Positions 1-50,964 of a DNA stretch of 64,000 bases are shown here, piece after piece. The notes below the pieces were generated by a model. The model was not told the origin of the DNA, ran no database searches, and was given only the letters and a program-made list of their open reading frames with translations. Position numbers and translations under genes: made by a program. The stretch's first letter is position 1. Each line of letters opens with the position of its first letter. The DNA is from Malacoraja senta (Eukaryota), in assembly GCA_038087875.1 (NCBI GenBank), contig CM075993.1, forward strand, positions 3,660,001-3,724,000. The letters run 5' to 3'.

Positions 1-360
1 GTCCTGAGTCTCCTCCATGGCCACAGCGAGCAACACCGGAAATTGTAGGAAATGCACCTCATATTCCGCTTGGGCAGTCTACATCCTGGGGGCTTGAACA
101 TTGAATTCTCCCAATTCTGCTAGCCCTTGCTGTCCCCTCCCCTTCATCAGCCCTCTGGTTGTCTCCTCCCATCCCCCAGCCCTCGGGCTCCTCCTCCGCC
201 TTTTTTCCTTTCTTCTCCCCACCCCCTATCAGTCTGAAGAAGGGTTTCGGCCCGAAACGTTGCCCATTTCCTTCACTCCATAGATGCTGCTGCACCCGCT
301 GAGTTTCTCCAGCATTTTTGTGTACCTTCGATTTTCCAGCATCTGCAGTTCCTTCTTTAA
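1..360 (+). mobile_element. Penelope-like element 3' end: GIY-YIG endonuclease C-terminus plus pseudo-LTR with hammerhead motif
   Basis: 1-123 translates VLSLLHGHSEQHRKL*EMHLIFRLGSLHPGGLNIEF, the typical PLE GIY-YIG tail with an internal stop. A pyrimidine-rich stretch follows, then CTGAAGAAGGGTTTCGGCCCGAAACGTT at 234-271. Confidence 0.8.
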
Positions 361-904
361 CAAAGTTCTTTTAAGGATGTGGTGACACAAGGAACAACAG
401 ATACTGGAATCTTGAGCAAAACACAAAGTGCTGGAGGAACTCAGCGGGTCAGGCAGCTTATGTGGAGGGAATGGACAGGTGATGTTTTGGATCAGGACCT
501 TCCACAGTCTGAAACATCGACCCTTCTTTGACCCGAAGCATCATCTGTCCATTTTCTCCACAGATACTGCATGACCTGCTGAGTTTCTCCAGCATTTTGT
601 GTTTTGCTGTAAGGGAGTGGTGCTTTACCTCAACCAGAGAGCAGTGCTGAACTACTATCTACCTCATTGGTCACCCTCGGACTATCCTTGATCGGACTTT
701 GCTGGCTTTACCTTGCACTAAACGTTATTCCCTTATCATGTATCTATACACTGTAAATGGCTCGATTGTAATCATGTATTGTCTTTCTGCTGACTGGATA
801 GCACGCAACAAACGTTTTTCACTGTACCTCGGTACACGTGACAATAAACTAAACTGAACTTTAATGTACAGGTTACTTGTCCAGTCTTTAATTAATGGTT
901 GAAC

Positions 905-5725: not shown

Positions 5726-5874
5726 AATCACGAATCCACTTCTACCTTCTTCCGAAGATCCACACTTAGGATTGTCCTGTAGACTCCCTGCACAGAATTC
5801 CTATATTCCTCCTATATCGAGCACAGAAGAGGATTACCTGCCTGGGTTAGAGGGTAGCAGCTATAAGGAGAGGT

Positions 5875-5991
5875 ACACAAAAATGCTGGAGAAACTCAGC
5901 GGGTGCAGCAGCATCTATGGAGCTCCATAGAGTTTCTCCAGCATTTTTGTGTACCTTCGATTTTCCAGCATCTGCAGTTCCTTCTTTAACA
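5875..5991. mobile_element. Fold-back PLE pseudo-LTR insertion with a 17-bp target-site duplication
   Basis: CAGCTATAAGGAGAGGT at 5858-5874 and 5992-6008 flanks a self-complementary insert inside a CR1 fragment. Confidence 0.8.
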
Positions 5992-8346
5992 CAGCTATAA
6001 GGAGAGGTTGGACATAATTGTTAGTTTTCTCTGGAGCACAGAGAATGAAGGGATACCAGTAGGAAGGAACTGCAGGTGCTGGTTTAAACAGAAGATAGAC
6101 ACACACAAAATGGAGTAACTCAGCGGGTCAGCTGGAAAAGTCATCCATTCCTGCTCTCTAGAGATGTTGCCTGTCCGCTAAGTTACACCAGCATTTTGTG
6201 TCTATCTTCCTCCACAAATGCTGCCTGACCCACTGAAGTTTTTTTTTTGTTCCAGATCCCAGCATCTACTGTCTATTGTGTCAACATTGCGAAATTAATT
6301 TTGGTCTGTATCTTTATACATGTATTTCCAAATATTACATAGCAAACTCTCGCTGATCATAACTTTCTTAAATTACTTTCACACACGTGCCGTGGTCAAC
6401 AGCCATCCAGTGTAAATCAAGAAAGATAGAGAGTGGTAAAGTAACTCAGTGGGTCAGACAGAATCTCCAGAGAACATTGATAGGTGACATTTTGGGACGG
6501 GACACTTCTTCAAAGGGGGGGGGGGGGAGGACAAAATGTGGCAAGTGATGGGTAGATAAAGATAAGGGGTGATTCCATCTATCACTTGCCAGGTTTCCTT
6601 CACCTCTTTTCCAACATTCTCACCCCCCCCCCACAATCACTCTGAAGAAGTGTCCTGATTTGAAACATCGCCTATCCATGTTCTACAGCAATGCTGACTG
6701 ACCCGCTGAGTTACTCCAACACTTTAAGGTCATAAGGAATAGGAGTAAAATTAGGCCATTCGGCCCATCAAGTCTACTCTGTCATTCAAGTCTCCTATAC
6801 TCCGCCATGCAATCACGGCTGATCTATCTCCCCCCTCCTAACCCCATTCTCCTGCCTTCTCCACATAACCTCTGACACCTACACTAGTCTTTTTTTTGTA
6901 AAGCAACATCTGCAGTTCTTTGTATCCACGTGGTCCGGGCGTCCTTATTTAAGGATGTGTATATATCGGAAACAGCCTAGGGAAAAGTTACTAGACTAAT
7001 AAATGGGTGGGTTGACTTATGAGCTAACGTTGAAAGACATGTGTGCACTGTAGTTTGGAAATGTAGGAGTGAAGGATATATAGATACAGCTCCAAGATTG
7101 TCTTGCTGCATGCAAGTTTACTTGCTCAATAGTTGCAAATGAAAGTGAACTTTGTGCAATCATCAGCATACCTCCCAACAGGGTGAATGTGGAGAGGATG
7201 TTATCTCTTGTGGGGAACACAGAGTTACTGTTTAAAAGTAAAGATTCAGCAAGTTAAGAGGAGGATGTGAATATTTTATCTGAAAATTGTAAGATCATAA
7301 GTCCACAAGTGATAGGAGCAGAATTAGGCCATTCGGCCCATCAAGTCTACTCCGCCATTCAATCATGGCTGATCTATCTCTCCCTCCTAAATCCCATTCT
7401 CTTGCCTTCTCCCCATGACCTCTGACATTGTGAGTCTTCCTTCAAATGTTTTTCAAGAGGGTGTAGATAGATTCCTGATAAGTAAGCGGGTTAATGATGA
7501 CCAGAGGAAGGTACGATTGTGGAGGTGGATGTTACATTCAGATCAGCGACGATCTTGTTGAAAGGCAGAACAGGATTGACGAGCCAAGTGGGACACTGTT
7601 TCTCCCAATTTGTATGTTCATACAAACTTCTTTAACTCCACTTATGTTCTGCAGTCGAAAGTGTAGCTCTGGAATGTTGCATGGGTCGGTTATGACTGCC
7701 GACTTGTGGGATAAGGAGGGACTGGTTTCGTTTAGTTTAGAGATACAGCGCGGACACAGGCCCGTTGGCCCACTGAGTCCGCACCAACCAGCGATCCCCG
7801 CACAGTAACACTATCCTAACACACTAGGGACAATTTACATTTATACCAAGCCTACAAACCTGTACGTCTTTGGAGTGTGGTTGTAAATGAAAGTGAACAT
7901 TGTAACGATGTACGATCGTGCAGCGGTAGAGTTGCTGCCTTACAGCGCCAGAGACACGGGTTCGAACCTGACTTGTCTGCATAGAGTTTGTACGTTCTCT
8001 CCGAGACCTGGGTGGGTTTTCTCCGGGATCTCTGGTTTCCCCCCATACTCCAAAGACGTACTGGTTTATAGACTCCGGAGAACATGGATAGCTAACATTT
8101 CAGGTCAGGACCCTTCTTCAGACTGCAATCTCCAAGGATCAGTTTCAAATCCAGAGAACATAAGGTTGATTCAACTCCATATCCTAATTTTCCTATTGTC
8201 CATGTTTAAAATAGGATCGCAGATCGAGTCGATTCTGGACCCTGAGGTTGGCAATCTATTTCCTTTCTAACTTAGTGTCCTCCATGATATTTATTCCTAG
8301 ATTCCAATATATTATTGCTTATCATTCAAGAAATCTTCAACAAGGA

Positions 8347-14561: not shown

Positions 14562-14788
14562 GAAGGAAATAGGCAACGTTTCGGGCCGAAACCCTGAAGG
14601 AAATAGGCAACGTTTCGGGACGAAACCCTGAAGGAAATAGGCAACGTTTCGGGCCGAAACCCTGAAGGAAATAGGCAATGTTTCGGGCCGAAACCCTGAA
14701 GGAAATAGGCAACGTTTCGGGCCGAAACCCTGAAGGAAATAGGCAACGTTTCGGGACGAAACCCTGAAGGAAATAGGTAACGTTTCGG
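14562..14788. repeat. 34-bp tandem array (6 full units plus 1 partial) derived from the PLE pseudo-LTR
   Basis: Unit GAAGGAAATAGGCAACGTTTCGGGCCGAAACCCT starts at 14562, 14596, 14630, 14664, 14698, 14732 and 14766. Confidence 0.95.
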
Positions 14789-26400: not shown

Positions 26401-27050
26401 TCAATAATAATAATAATAATATATTTTATTTATATACCGCTTTTCAGGTCTCAAAGTCGCTTTACATTGAGAGTCAAAAAAATAAATAAAAAATAGAGCA
26501 GTAAGACAGAGATGCAAAGGGGAGGGGAACATGGGACTAAGGGTATGCAGAGGTGAAGAGATGGGTCTTGAGGCGGGACTGGAAGATGGTGAAGGACTCA
26601 GAATTTCGGACCAGTTGTGGGAGGGAATTCCAGAGCCTGGGAGCTGCCCTGGGGAAGGCTCTGCCTCCAAAAGTGCAGAGGTTGGATTTCGGAGTGGAGA
26701 GGAGGACCGGCTGATGTGGATCTGAGGGACCGTGAGGGTTGGTAGGGGGAGAGGAGGTCAGTGAGATAAGGGGGGGGGCCAAGTGGTTGAGGGCTTTGTA
26801 GGTGAGGACCAGGATTTTGTAGATGATCCGGCGGGAAATGGAAGCCAGTGAAGTTCTTTGAGAACTGGGGTGATGTGGTGCCAGGATTTGGTGTGGGTGA
26901 TGAGTCGGGCGGCTGCATTCTGGACCAGTTGGAGTCGGTTGGATGTTGCTGGAATTGATGCCAAAGAGAAGAGAGTTACAGTAGTCCAGTCGGGAGGAGA
27001 TGAAGGCATGGATGAGTCTTTCAGCAGCGGGGGGTACAACTGTACGGGGG
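26401..27050 (-). mobile_element. L2 LINE 3' fragment
   Basis: ORFs 26537-27067 and 26758-27108 (LIHAFISSRLDYCNSLL; RLQLVQNAAARL; AAPRLWNSLP..FQSRLKTHLF) and a (TAT)n tail. Confidence 0.85.
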
Positions 27051-27149
27051 GTTCCAGGCACAGACAAGCTTTAAAACATGTTTTATTCAACTTGTACAGG
27101 TTTTCCAAACAAAAGATGGCACAAAAAGCTGGAGTAACTCAGCGGGTCA

Positions 27150-28980
27150 GAGAGCTGAAGAAGGGCATAAAGAGGGCCAAGCACTGCCATAAACTCAGGA
27201 TTGAGGAGCACTTCAACAACAACTCCGACCCCCGACGCATGTGGCAAGGCATCCAGGCCATCACGGACTTTAGACCCACCAACACCACCCCCACATCCAG
27301 TAACGCCTCCTTCCTTGAGGAGCTCAACCACTTCTATGGCCGTTTCGATAGGGACAATCAGCAGTTGGCCATCAAGGCGGTGCTCCCTGCCGATCACCAG
27401 CCCCTCTCACTCACCCCCTTCGACGTGTACGTGGCACTGAGTAGGACTAATGCACGTAAGGCTGCTGGCCCCGACGGCATCCCCGGGCGCGTCCTCAGGG
27501 CCTGTGCTGCGCAGCTGACAGACGTCTGGACTGACATCTTCAACCTGTCACTTGCCCAAGCAGTTGTGCCCACGTGCCTTAAATCCACCTCCATCGTGCC
27601 GGTGCCAAAACACTCCACTGCGGCAAGCCTCAACGACTTCCGCCCAGTTGCACTTACTCCCATCATCGCCAAGTGCTTCGAGAGGCTGGTCCCTGGCACA
27701 CCTCAAAGGCTGCCTACCCCCCACGTTGGATCCCTATCAGTTTGCCTACCGCAAGAACAGGAGTACAGAGGATGCCATCTCAACGGCACTTCACTCCGCC
27801 CTCTCCCACCTCGACAACAGAGACACTTACGTAAGAATGCTGTTCATCGATTACAGCTCAGCATTCAACACCATCATACCCTCTAAACTGATCACCAAAC
27901 TCGGTGACCTGGGCATTGACCCCTCCCTCTGCAACTGGATACTGGACTTTCTAACCAACAGACCCCAGTCTGTTAGGTTAGACAAGCCACACCTCTTCAA
28001 CCCTCACCCTGAACACCGGCGTTCCACAGGGCTGTGTGCTGAGCCCCCTCCTCTACTCGCTCTTCACCTACGACTGCACATGGTACTAACACCATCATCA
28101 AGAATGCAGATGATACAACGGTGATTGGCCTCATCAGCAACAACGATGAGTCGGCCTATAGGGAGGAGGTCCAGCTCCTAGCAGCATGGTGCGCTGACAA
28201 CAACCTGGCCCTTAACTCCAAGAAGACCAAGGAGCTCATTGTAGACTTCAGGAAGTCCTAGGGGCGGCATGCACACCCCCATCCACATTAACGGGAGGGA
28301 GGTGGAACGTGTTTCCAGCTTCAGGTTCCTGGGGGTCAACATCTCCGATGACCTCTCTTGGACCAACAATACCTCAACTCTGGTCAAGAAGGCTCACCAG
28401 CGTCTCTTCTTCCTGAGGAGACTAAAGAAGGTCCATCTGTCTCCTCGGATTCTGGTGAACTTCTACCGCTGCACCATCGAGAGCATCCTTACCAACTGCA
28501 TCACAGTATGGTATGGCAACTGCTCTGTCTCCGACCGGAAAAGCACTGCAGAGGGTGGTGAAAATTGCCCAACGCATCACCGGTTCCTCACTCCCCACCA
28601 TTGAGTCTGTCCAAAGCAAGCGTTGTCTGCGAAGGGCGCTCAGCATCGCCAAGGACTGCTCTCACCCCAACCACAGACTGTTTACCCTCCTACCATCCGG
28701 GAGGCGCTACAGGTCTCTCCGTTGCCGGACCAGCAGGTCCAGGAACAGCTTCTTCCCTGCGGCGGTACACTACTCAACACTGTACCTCGGTGACTGCCAA
28801 TCACCCCCCCCCCCCCCCCCGGACACTCCTCCCACCAGGATTTATTAGATTAGATTTATTTATTTACTGCTCATATTTATGTCGCTCTTCTAGGGAGATG
28901 CTAACTGCATTTCGTTGTCTCTGTACTGTACACTGCACAATGGACAATAAAGTTGAATCTGAATCTGAATCTGAATCTGA
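27150..28980 (+). mobile_element. Rex1/Babar-like LINE, 5'-truncated, with a frameshifted reverse transcriptase
   Basis: [45 protein letters not shown] spread over several frames; (TCTGAA)n tail. Inserted within a PLE pseudo-LTR (27115-27150 and 28981 onward). Confidence 0.9.
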
Positions 28981-29200
28981 AGCATCTCTGGAGAAAAGGA
29001 ATGGGCGGTGTTTCAGGTCGAGACCATTCTTTAGGCTGAGAGTTAGGGGAAAGGGAATCGGGGGATATAGACGGTGATATAGAGAGATATAGAACAAATG
29101 AATGAGAGATATGAAAAAACGTAACAATGATAAAGGAAACAGGCCATTGTTAGCTGTGGACGAGTTAGAGACAATGAGACTCAACAAGAGGACTTTGAAG

Positions 29201-29548
29201 GTTTCGGCCCGAAACGTTACCTATTTCCTTCGCTCCATAGATGCTGCTGCACCCGCTGAGTTTCTCCAGCACTTTTGTGTACCTTCGATTTTCCAGCATC
29301 TGCAGTTCCTTCTTTAACACTTTGTCTACTCCACTGCGAAATCTCGTCAAGGTATGCCTACTTTGAAGAAGTTCTCCTCCTCTCTCCGGAGACTGTTCGG
29401 GCTCCTCCTCCGCCTTTTTCCTTTTTTCCTTTCTTCTCCCCACCCCCTATCAGTCTGAAGAAGGGTTTCGGCCCGAAACGTTACCTATTTCCTTCGCTCC
29501 ATAGATGCTGCTGCACCCGCTGAGTTTCTCCAGCACTTTTGTGTACCT
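29201..29548 (+). mobile_element. Internally deleted Penelope-like unit with two tandem pseudo-LTRs (retrozyme-like)
   Basis: 15-bp TSD AAGAGGACTTTGAAG (29186-29200, 29549-29563). The repeat GTTTCGGCCCGAAACGTTACC occurs at 29201 and 29465 (period 264). Intact core CTGAAGA at 29455. Confidence 0.8.
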
Positions 29549-29672
29549 AAGAGGACTTTGAAGCTCATACAACGACTTGGGTGGGGGAGGGACGGAGAAA
29601 GGAGGATGCAAGGGTTACTTGAAGTTAGAGAAATCAATATCATACCATATCATATCAACAATCTGAATTACA

Positions 29673-29759
29673 AGGGTTTCGGCCCGAAACGTTGCCTATT
29701 TCCTTCGCTCCATAGATGCTGCTGCACCCGCTGAGTTTCTCCAGCATTTTTGTCTACCT
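29673..29759 (+). mobile_element. 87-bp pseudo-LTR insertion with an 11-bp TSD
   Basis: TCTGAATTACA at 29662-29672 and 29760-29770. Confidence 0.8.
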
Positions 29760-29806
29760 TCTGAATTACACTATTTGTCATGAGTTGCATCTGCAACTGC
29801 ACATGG

Positions 29807-42948: not shown

Positions 42949-43090
42949 TTTATTGTCACATCTACCATGAAGGCACAGTGAAATTCTTTGTGTTTTGCTC
43001 ACACACTACACAAAAGAGTCGACAGAAGTCGACCAAGTTACAAAGTACCCTTAAATATTAAATACCCTTAAATGCTCAGAAAGCATGTCT

Positions 43091-43354
43091 GAAGAAGGGT
43101 TTCGGCCCGAAACGTTGCCTATTTCCTTCGCTCCATAGATGCTGCTGCACCCGCTGAGATTCTCCAGCATTTTTGTGTACCGTTAAATATTGTTGGTCCC
43201 TTCTTTGTCTCCCCCTCCATCCGAAGAAGGGTTTCGGCCCGAAACGTTGCCTATTTCCTTTGCTCCATAGATGCTGCTGCACCCGCTGAGTTTCTCCAGC
43301 ATTTTTGTGTACCCTTAAATATTGTTGGTCCCTTCTTTGTCTCCCCCTCCATCC
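43091..43354 (+). repeat. 132-bp tandem duplication of a pseudo-LTR plus adjacent unique flank
   Basis: Units start at 43091 and 43223; each ends ttaaatattgttggtcccttctttgtctccccctccatcc. Confidence 0.9.
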
Positions 43355-49940: not shown

Positions 49941-50964
49941 GTAAGGTTATTTGTAGGTTTTAAAACATTGTTCATAGAACTTGGGTCGCAGTTTACTGCC
50001 CAGTCCATAATTTCCCATTGAACTTTGACACAAAAAGCTGGAGTAACTCAGCTCAGTATTCAGTAAGACAGCATCCCTGGAGAAAAGGAATAGGTGACGT
50101 TTCAGGTCGAGACACTTCTTCAGACTGAGTGTCAGGGGAGAGGGAAACGAGAGGTGTACACAGTGAAGTAGAGGAATATAGAACAAAGAAAGAAAGATAT
50201 GCGAAAAAGTAACGATGATAAAGGAAACAGGCCATTGTTAGCTGTGTGCTAGGTGAGAATGAGTACAGACAATGAGACTCAACAAGACGACTTTGAAGCT
50301 GGTGGGGGGGGGGGACGGAGAGAGAGGGTTGCGAGGGTTAATTGAAGTTAGAGAAATTAATATTAATAATCAAAAAACCCAAACCACTGGGTTGTAAGCA
50401 GCCCAAGCTTGGCCAAAGCCAAGCCCATGGAACTGAATGGATTACTTGACTGCTTTAAGGACAGATAAGATACATAGACTTGGAATCGCATACAAGTTCC
50501 TTAAAGATTACATAGAACATTATACTGCATATTTGTGGAAATGATGTCAAATGAAACCAGCCGCCTCTGCCTGCACGTGATCCATTTATCTCCATTCCCT
50601 GCATATTTATGTGCATGTCTAAATGCTACTTAAATGGCAATATTGTGTCTTCTTCCAATACCATCCCCTGGCAGCACCTTACATTAGAGGAGCCCCTTTT
50701 AATTGGTCATTAAATGAGGTCTTTGAGTGCCTTTTTTTGAAATGAGCATAACCTCATCCAGTTCATTTTACCAGCATCTTGTATAATTTAAGAAAAGTTT
50801 AATTTTATTTTTATTGCTCGTGTCAGTATTTCCTTTGAAGCGTGAAAAGAGTTCATTGTGAGTGGGAACATTGTGATATTCTGCAAAAGTAATTGTGAAA
50901 AAGGCAAATTGGTCAGACATAATTTAATAATTTGAGGTCTCATCAGCTCATTAAATTGTTCCAG

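What the first reader, a model, noticed from the sequence alone, without database searches (positions are those of the whole stretch)
29186..29563. TSD-flanked 264-nt hammerhead-to-hammerhead unit resembling a retrozyme monomer
Seen: a 348-bp insert between perfect 15-bp direct repeats, made of a partial pseudo-LTR, a short spacer and a second pseudo-LTR. Both copies share the private variant GAAACGTTACC, and the period is 264 nt. It has no RT or endonuclease coding capacity. Known: metazoan non-LTR retrozymes are tandem 170-400-nt hammerhead units processed to circular RNAs. Inference: about 1.3 laps of reverse transcription on a small (possibly circular) RNA, mobilised in trans by a PLE enzyme.
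Basis: partly seen in the sequence, partly recalled or inferred. Interest (0 to 1): 0.7.

Follow-up and report, generated by a model that had tools for sequence, protein, structure and literature searches.

The report
Gutted Penelope-like retrotransposon with hammerhead
This 348-base insertion is a copy of a very common Penelope-like jumping gene that has lost almost all of its coding part, and it looks more like such a shortened copy than like a self-cutting RNA circle, although whether it has sister copies could not be tested.

Summary
The anatomy is confirmed: 348 bp between perfect 15-bp target duplications, two identical 85-nt pseudo-LTRs 264 nt apart. It is an internally deleted copy of an abundant cartilaginous-fish Penelope-like element (PLE; Neptune/Nematis-type relatives): truncated pLTR, 35-nt tail, 78 nt of the 5' body, then fused to the 3'UTR and a second pLTR. 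It sits inside an older PLE. Against a retrozyme: the first copy lacks the catalytic core; the second is a minimal GUU hammerhead with a 2-bp helix I. The insert starts and ends where ordinary solo copies do, not at GUU (0 of 15 young segments start there). GAAACGTTACC is a common subfamily variant, not private. Best reading (0.65): the PLE enzyme copied a linear pLTR-to-pLTR transcript that skipped, or already lacked, the ORF. Rivals: later genomic deletion (0.2), ribozyme circle (0.12). The decisive count, genome-wide copies of the junction, could not be made: no genome is held. A different deleted junction of this family stands at 11-20 times typical contig depth in two runs, so small families are possible. 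The scan noted a similar gutted PLE in another genome (e1-7814458). Interest 0.3.

The parts
29186..29200 (+). 5' copy of the 15-bp target-site duplication (its last G could equally be the element's first base)
29201..29284 (+). 5'-truncated pLTR: starts inside hammerhead helix II, no CUGANGA core, keeps GAAAC-GUU (GUU at 29216-29218)
29285..29319 (+). 35-nt PLE 'tail' between the family's two 3' end sites
   Evidence: 8 of 13 other young segments end at site 1, 4 at +35/+36, 1 at +29
29320..29396 (+). 5' body of the parent element; ATG at 29354 is the probable ORF start (inferred), about 14 codons kept
   Evidence: no other copy in the window; present in runs X1-X3 at 18-42 times lower depth than the pLTR; 48 aa at 90% to a Leucoraja erinacea gene model
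29383..29392 (.). perfect 10-nt palindrome just before the internal junction; the only one in the insert (89 in the window)
29394..29397 (+). internal deletion junction, 5' body (about ATG+44) to 3'UTR; exact base uncertain by a few nt
   Evidence: 3'UTR match to the copy at 183 starts at 29397; an X2 contig matches 29316-29397 and has 21 further letters that do not fit (piece 15)
29397..29451 (+). last 55 nt of the parent's 3'UTR
   Evidence: matches window 183-230, which follows a GIY-YIG C-terminus
29452..29548 (+). complete pLTR with minimal type I hammerhead (core 29455-29461, helix II 29463-29474, GUU 29480-29482, 2-bp helix I); ends at 3' site 1 without tail
29549..29563 (+). 3' copy of the target-site duplication
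28985..29200 (-). host: 3'UTR and decayed pLTR of an older PLE subfamily, interrupted by the insert
29564..29650 (-). host continued: end of the older PLE's endonuclease reading frame and start of its 3'UTR
1..362 (+). reference copy of the same young family: GIY-YIG C-terminus (one in-frame stop), 3'UTR, pLTR, tail; identifies the parent
   Evidence: (78% to P0002)

Best explanation
An internally deleted, non-autonomous copy of a young endonuclease-bearing PLE, made from a linear RNA without need of ribozyme cleavage. Shown: the order of parts, the target duplication, both ends on the family's ordinary end points. Inferred: (1) a transcript began near the start of an upstream pLTR and ran through to a downstream pLTR; (2) the PLE endonuclease nicked the target with a 15-nt stagger and the RT started at site 1 of the downstream pLTR; (3) it copied 152 nt, then went on at about ATG+44, either by hopping over the ORF during this event or because the donor was already deleted; (4) it copied back to near the RNA's 5' end and joined the target. 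The '1.3 laps' are the normal partial-tandem PLE layout with the ORF missing. The copy is probably inert: no tail or body follows the second pLTR and the first pLTR lacks its start.
For: Every part maps to the parent family. The 3' end is at site 1, as in 8 of 13 other young segments; the 5' end is at register 29464, inside the 29449-29464 cluster of 9 of 13; 0 of 15 young segments start at the cleavage position 29483. In runs X1-X3, 12 of the 15 joints shown run from the tail to 29449-29453, letters between not known, 604 joints not shown, so pLTR-start ends are common. The 5' copy has no core. In the anole PLE, hammerhead mutants did not change insertion, RT started at two internal sites that bound the tail, and no RNA reads ended at the cleavage site (PMC11167929). 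Partial tandems with a truncated upstream copy are about 30% of D. virilis copies (PMC2377424). Internally deleted PLEs are in print (PMC3846280; PMC8557442). The window shows other rearranged copies of this family: a 34-nt reiteration and a head-to-head pair.
Against: The junction's copy number is untested. A different deleted junction (29385 to 29458) stands at 11 and 20 times the median depth of the 8 listed pieces in X1 and X2 (one contig each, letters between not known, absent in X3), so deleted units may amplify. A stop at helix II could also occur on a circle. Two identical pLTRs fit a circle equally well. No clear microhomology could be shown, because the parent sequence beyond ATG+44 was not obtained. 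A hop during RT and a deleted donor cannot be told apart here.
Confidence: 0.65

Rival explanations
1. A full-length partial-tandem PLE inserted here, and a later genomic deletion removed its ORF.
For: Gives the same order of parts and the same ends. Deletion-disabled PLEs are reported in A. vaga (PMC3846280). No second copy of the junction in the 64-kb window.
Against: Perfect 15-bp duplication and 0 differences between the pLTRs leave little time. Two other fused forms break close to the same point of the 5' body (ATG+32 in X1/X2; within about 4 codons in gene model P0001), which random DNA deletion would not favour; both are weak, see Tried and rejected.
Confidence: 0.2
2. One reading: a 264-nt RNA cut at GUU by dimeric minimal hammerheads from a tandem donor elsewhere, ligated to a circle and copied 1.3 times by the PLE RT; a nascent non-LTR retrozyme.
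For: Unit size lies in the 170-400 nt range (PMC7229834). Identical pLTRs. The A variant turns the first helix I pair from U-G to U-A. The unit keeps pLTR, tail and 78 nt beyond; the anole PLE needs RNA to about 55-60 nt past its main RT start (my subtraction from PMC11167929). Circular templates were proposed for PLEs (PMC4209133). Retrozymes were called in one chondrichthyan and traced to pLTRs (bioRxiv 10.64898/2026.07.22.740005). The circle folds somewhat better than shuffles (z -1.9).
Against: Only one core at this locus. Helix I is 2 bp; the stem-III palindrome can extend to 6 bp by pairing the cleavage U; GUU is a poor triplet (recalled). Minimal PLE hammerheads cleave weakly even as dimers, and 8 of 9 frog dimers did not cleave. 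No young segment starts at the cleavage site (0 of 15). The circle's minimum-energy fold has 45% of bases paired and does not form helix II. No tandem array of the unit in the window.
Confidence: 0.12
3. Assembly artefact or chance nesting of independent pLTR insertions.
For: pLTR-like copies are dense (48 hits in 64 kb) and several unrelated pairs lie 130-420 nt apart. No listed contig spans the locus.
Against: One target duplication brackets the whole; the host element is continuous across it; the pair is the only identical one of 66; the spacer is all parent sequence.
Confidence: 0.03

Closest known systems
Endonuclease-bearing Penelope-like elements with a CX2-5CxxC linker (Neptune/Nematis type) and their partial-tandem insertions
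   Same: pLTR with minimal type I hammerhead, 35-nt optional tail, truncated upstream pLTR, target duplication; the family's 3' end carries a GIY-YIG C-terminus; relatives P0014, P0152-P0154 carry the cysteine linker, which PMC8557442 gives for Neptune/Nematis and not Penelope/Poseidon.
   Different: All of the ORF except about 14 codons is gone. Clade call rests on a motif in relatives; no RT tree was built.
Metazoan non-LTR retrozymes (Cervera and de la Pena 2020, PMC7229834; Li, Clavereau and Pollet 2026, bioRxiv 10.64898/2026.07.22.740005)
   Same: Non-coding, 170-400 nt period, type I hammerhead, long target duplication, PLE-derived sequence.
   Different: 1.3 units, one core only; minimal GUU motif, not a canonical one; fails Li et al.'s rule of two consecutive units with complete hammerheads; no RNA evidence; the body is recognisable PLE 5' body plus 3'UTR.
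Non-autonomous and internally deleted PLE derivatives (Chlamys non-autonomous elements such as MRC1, PMC8557442; deleted Pen2 copy of Adineta vaga, PMC3846280)
   Same: pLTR-bounded, non-coding, dependent on a PLE enzyme.
   Different: MRC1 is an active multi-copy family; multi-copy status is not shown here. The A. vaga deletion is by microhomology; here that could not be checked.

Membership tests
PLE-derived insertion (EN+) | pLTR with minimal hammerhead, shared with an RT/GIY-YIG element | tested here: met
   Window 1-362 links a GIY-YIG C-terminus (78% to P0002) to the same 3'UTR and pLTR; P0152 and P0153 join RT and GIY-YIG
PLE-derived insertion (EN+) | Two 3' end sites 30-40 nt apart (tail) | tested here: met
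   8 of 13 other young segments end at site 1, 4 at +35/+36, 1 at +29; the insert ends at site 1
PLE-derived insertion (EN+) | Target-site duplication, partial tandem with 5'-truncated upstream copy | tested here: met
Autonomous PLE | Intact RT-endonuclease ORF | tested here: not met
   No ORF of 150 aa or more; no tblastn hit of 5 PLE-related proteins in the insert
Neptune/Nematis clade | CX2-5CxxC linker before a C-terminal GIY-YIG; RT phylogeny | tested here: inconclusive
   Motif seen in relatives P0014, P0152, P0153, P0154, not in the window's own family sequence; no tree built
Non-LTR retrozyme | Non-coding unit of about 170-400 nt | tested here: met
   264 nt
Non-LTR retrozyme | At least two consecutive units, each with a complete hammerhead | tested here: not met
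   1.32 units; 5' copy core TTGAAGG
Non-LTR retrozyme | Canonical type I hammerhead (helix I about 6 bp, loop 1-loop 2 contacts) | tested here: not met
   2 of 5 pairs next to the core, then mismatches; no Rfam match. Li et al. also accept minimal motifs
Non-LTR retrozyme | Multi-copy family of the same unit | tested here: inconclusive
   1 copy in 64 kb; no genome; public-run word shares and depths cannot decide
Non-LTR retrozyme | Highly self-paired circle | tested here: inconclusive
   Circular fold -50.9 against -43.2 +/- 4.1 kcal/mol in 100 shuffles, z -1.9, 45% paired; linear locus z -0.8; no known retrozyme folded as a control
Non-LTR retrozyme | Self-cleavage and accumulation of unit-length linear and circular RNA | not testable with these tools

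The most novel reading that the evidence does not exclude
A retrozyme caught at birth. The PLE RT repeatedly hops from the 3'UTR to a hotspot just past a palindrome at ATG+30 to +45, the edge of the RNA stretch that the enzyme grips. This yields 190-340-nt units that keep pLTR, tail and binding site, are therefore mobile in trans, and amplify as small families, some through protein-assisted hammerhead circles. That would supply the missing step between PLEs and animal retrozymes and define a minimal PLE cis-unit.
Probability: 0.15. Interest if true: 0.6.

Novelty: new member of a known kind. Interest (0 to 1): 0.3.

Why it matters
As best read it is an ordinary by-product of an abundant retroelement and matters little by itself. 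It is a tidy natural construct, though: it keeps the pLTR, both RT start sites and 78 nt beyond, close to what the anole PLE needs in vitro. If its junction proves multi-copy, or such junctions cluster genome-wide, it would make the proposed PLE-to-retrozyme route directly testable and mark the minimal RNA that a PLE enzyme can mobilise. I found no description of this family's hammerhead or mini-copies in skates or sharks in searches; supplements of the 2026 preprint and of PMC7229834, which I could not see, may list them.

Tried and rejected
Whole-genome junction count: no genome held. Junction pattern in JGI metagenomes: 0, but a control pattern from the 5' body also gave 0, so this says nothing. 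pLTR pattern in viral contigs: 0. Word shares in public runs (best 0.88 and 0.80 of 25 words): about 2.8 of 25 words are expected to cross the junction, which fits its absence, but the two runs of one organism differ by 2 words, so noise is as large as the signal; not used as evidence. Read laying (4 of 23 listed runs): X22 laid nothing; X1-X3 are contigs; depth does not fall to zero at the junction because native pieces cover it from both sides; 604 joints, 1565 loose ends and 187638 pieces were not shown. No RNA run was laid. Breakpoint 'hotspot': only breaks inside the 78 nt laid could be seen, so the 29385 joint is weak support; P0001 is an automatic gene model with a LINE-like part upstream and its fusion may be a splice artefact. 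Parent ORF start: three protein searches and one representative search (swamped by LINE RTs because P0002 is a chimera) gave no full-length ORF of this family; ATG 29354 stays an inference. Atlas: no usable hit. Rfam: nothing relevant. The bacterial promoter scan is not meaningful for this organism. A hammerhead core made from the target duplication at the 5' copy was considered and rejected: positions 3 and 9 differ from the core. Scan look-ups by sequence, place and relatives found nothing.

Full report
OBSERVATION. The coordinates are right. A 15-mer at 29186-29200 recurs at 29549-29563 around 348 bp, and occurs nowhere else on either strand of the window. Inside, 29200-29284 and 29464-29548 are identical over 85 nt, 264 apart. 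With the insert taken out, the flanks align collinearly with three other copies of an older PLE subfamily on the minus strand (72-79% identity), and the copy at 50074-50363 has the matching sequence once; so this is a real target duplication in a host element. Among 12 young pLTR cores aligned without gaps, this is the only identical pair of 66 (median 4 differences). No ORF of 150 aa or more overlaps it.

TWO CLAIMS FAIL. The variant GAAACGTTACC is not private. It also stands at 14776 (3 against 14 of the G form), and at 29483 the non-G share of laid contig depth is 36%, 21% and 9% in runs X1, X2 and X3. Placement among three similar copies may bias these shares, but they are far from zero. 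The unit is also not hammerhead-to-hammerhead. The 5' copy begins inside helix II and reads TTGAAGG where the 3' copy reads CTGAAGA. A minimal-core pattern finds 11 sites in the window, 29455 among them, and none at the 5' copy. In a dimeric fold one core gives one cut at most (inference from the dimer model in PMC4209133), so this locus cannot release a unit-length RNA by itself.

WHAT THE PARTS ARE. The window is dense with PLE pLTRs (48 hits). Window 1-362 is the 3' end of the same young family: a GIY-YIG C-terminus with one in-frame stop (78% to a Leucoraja erinacea protein; hits to shark RT/GIY-YIG proteins), then a 3'UTR, the pLTR and a 35-nt tail. The insert's 29397-29451 matches the end of that 3'UTR, with 7 extra nt. 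Its 29285-29319 is the tail. Its 29320-29396 has no other copy in the window but is repeated in three public runs, at 18-42 times lower depth than the pLTR (the tool warns that depth is no copy number). One X2 contig follows it to 29397 and has 21 further letters that do not fit; I read this as the native body diverging there. A Leucoraja gene model carries the same pLTR-tail-body stretch (48 aa, 90%). So the 'spacer' is tail plus 5' body, fused at about ATG+44 to the 3'UTR: a PLE whose ORF is gone. That ATG 29354 opens the ORF is inferred; I did not obtain the parent's full ORF. Relatives carry a cysteine linker before GIY-YIG, given in PMC8557442 for Neptune/Nematis and not Penelope/Poseidon. 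The named hits point to a skate or related cartilaginous fish; the source is not known to me.

THE ENDS. Of 13 other young segments (88% or more, 45 nt or more), 8 end at the same base as the insert (allowing 1-2 nt), 4 end 35-36 nt further on and 1 at +29. This is the two-site 'tail' signature that PMC11167929 ties to two internal RT start sites. Their 5' ends lie at register 29449-29464 in 9 of 13, at 29496-29522 in 3, and further upstream in 1. None of the 15 segments starts at the cleavage position 29483. The insert's own 5' end, register 29464, is in the main cluster. In X1-X3, 12 of the 15 joints shown lead from the tail to 29449-29453 (letters between not known; 604 joints not shown). 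The sequence there, TCAGTCT, resembles an initiator (consensus recalled; an Inr-like TCACT is noted in a rotifer pLTR), and Penelope transcription starts in the pLTR (PMC2377424). I infer that templates are uncleaved linear RNAs that begin near the pLTR start.

THE RIBOZYME. The 3' copy has the minimal type I layout of PMC4209133: core, a 4-bp helix II, a palindromic stem III. Only two pairs of helix I flank the core, the triplet is GUU, and the palindrome dimer extends to 6 bp by pairing the cleavage U; that GUU cleaves poorly is recalled. Minimal PLE hammerheads were inactive as monomers and weak as dimers; the anole one needs protein and is dispensable for insertion in vitro; 8 of 9 frog retrozyme dimers did not cleave. 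In favour of function, the A variant makes the first helix I pair Watson-Crick, and D. virilis has a 2-bp helix I too. The 264-nt circle folds at z -1.9 with 45% pairing and without helix II; the linear locus at z -0.8.

MECHANISM. Most likely (0.65) the PLE enzyme copied a linear pLTR-to-pLTR transcript from site 1, went from the 3'UTR to ATG+44 by a hop or on an already deleted donor, and stopped near the RNA's 5' end. The order of parts, the duplication and the end points are shown; the RNA, the hop and its timing are inferred. A later DNA deletion (0.2) gives the same picture but needs time that the perfect repeats hardly allow. A ribozyme-made circle from a tandem donor elsewhere (0.12) is not excluded: identical pLTRs fit it, helix II could stall RT on a circle, and circles were proposed for PLEs.

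WHAT STAYS OPEN. No genome is held; the metagenome scan was empty for the junction and for its control; word shares are too noisy. Two hints keep the family reading alive. A different joint, 29385 to 29458, appears in both runs of organism A at 11 and 20 times the median depth of the listed pieces, and not in X3 (one contig each, letters between not known). And gene model P0001 passes from the same point of the body, within about four codons, into the family's 3' end, though this may be a splice artefact. Both break near a 10-nt palindrome at 29383-29392. The kept 78 nt past the tail compare with about 55-60 nt needed past the main RT start in the anole PLE (my subtraction).

KNOWN AND NEW. 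It works like a non-autonomous PLE derivative and is a PLE-derived insertion by all features tested. It is not to be filed as a retrozyme: two defining features were tested and not met. Deleted and non-autonomous PLEs are in print, and a 2026 preprint already calls retrozymes in a chondrichthyan (mean 363 bp) and derives them from pLTRs. Papers seen: bioRxiv 10.64898/2026.07.22.740005, parts 1-3 of 5, no supplements; PMC11167929, parts 1-2 of 4; PMC4209133, parts 1-2 of 4 and a search of its supplements with one file not searched; PMC7229834, part 2 of 6, passages and Discussion, supplement unreadable; PMC8557442, PMC3846280, PMC2377424 and PMC7936874, passages only. Verdict: real, PLE-derived, new member of a known kind; interest 0.3.

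Noticed in passing
window 14562-14788 (minus): 6.7 copies of a 34-nt piece of the pLTR (register 29462-29495, helix II to 13 nt past the cleavage site) on the 5' side of a pLTR-plus-tail copy. A joint of the same register is listed in X1 and X2, not X3 (29495 to 29673). Could be repeated jump-back by this telomerase-related RT, or later slippage.
   Followed up: partly
window 5858-6008: Head-to-head pair of truncated pLTRs with the tail on one side only, inside a 17-nt direct repeat: the classic inverted PLE arrangement in miniature.
   Followed up: partly
window 29662-29770: Independent solo pLTR of the same family with an 11-nt target duplication, about 100 nt downstream of the finding; 3 differences from the finding's pLTRs.
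   Followed up: yes
window 43087-43354: 132-nt tandem of two pLTRs with shared non-element sequence repeated after each; looks like a local duplication or a double insertion.
   Followed up: no
runs X1 and X2, joint 29385 to 29458: A second deleted form of the family (about 192-nt period if nothing lies between) at 11-20 times median piece depth; a candidate low-copy mini-element or array.
   Followed up: partly
proteins P0001, P0002, P0014: Three Leucoraja erinacea gene models contain pieces of this PLE family; P0001 reads pLTR, tail and 5' body into a RING/SPRY-type protein. Probably annotation artefacts; exonisation not tested.
   Followed up: partly
window 29397-29403 and 29470-29476: In the predicted fold the first bases after the junction pair with the hammerhead's helix II arm, so the 3' breakpoint lies at the foot of a predicted long-range helix.
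   Followed up: no
whole window: Two PLE subfamilies differ at the cleavage triplet: the older has GUC, the younger GUU; all 11 core matches have at most 2 contiguous helix I pairs next to the core.
   Followed up: partly
window 26852-28980: A decayed LINE-like RT remnant ending in a (TGAATC)n run lies just upstream on the plus strand; a possible source of read-through.
   Followed up: no
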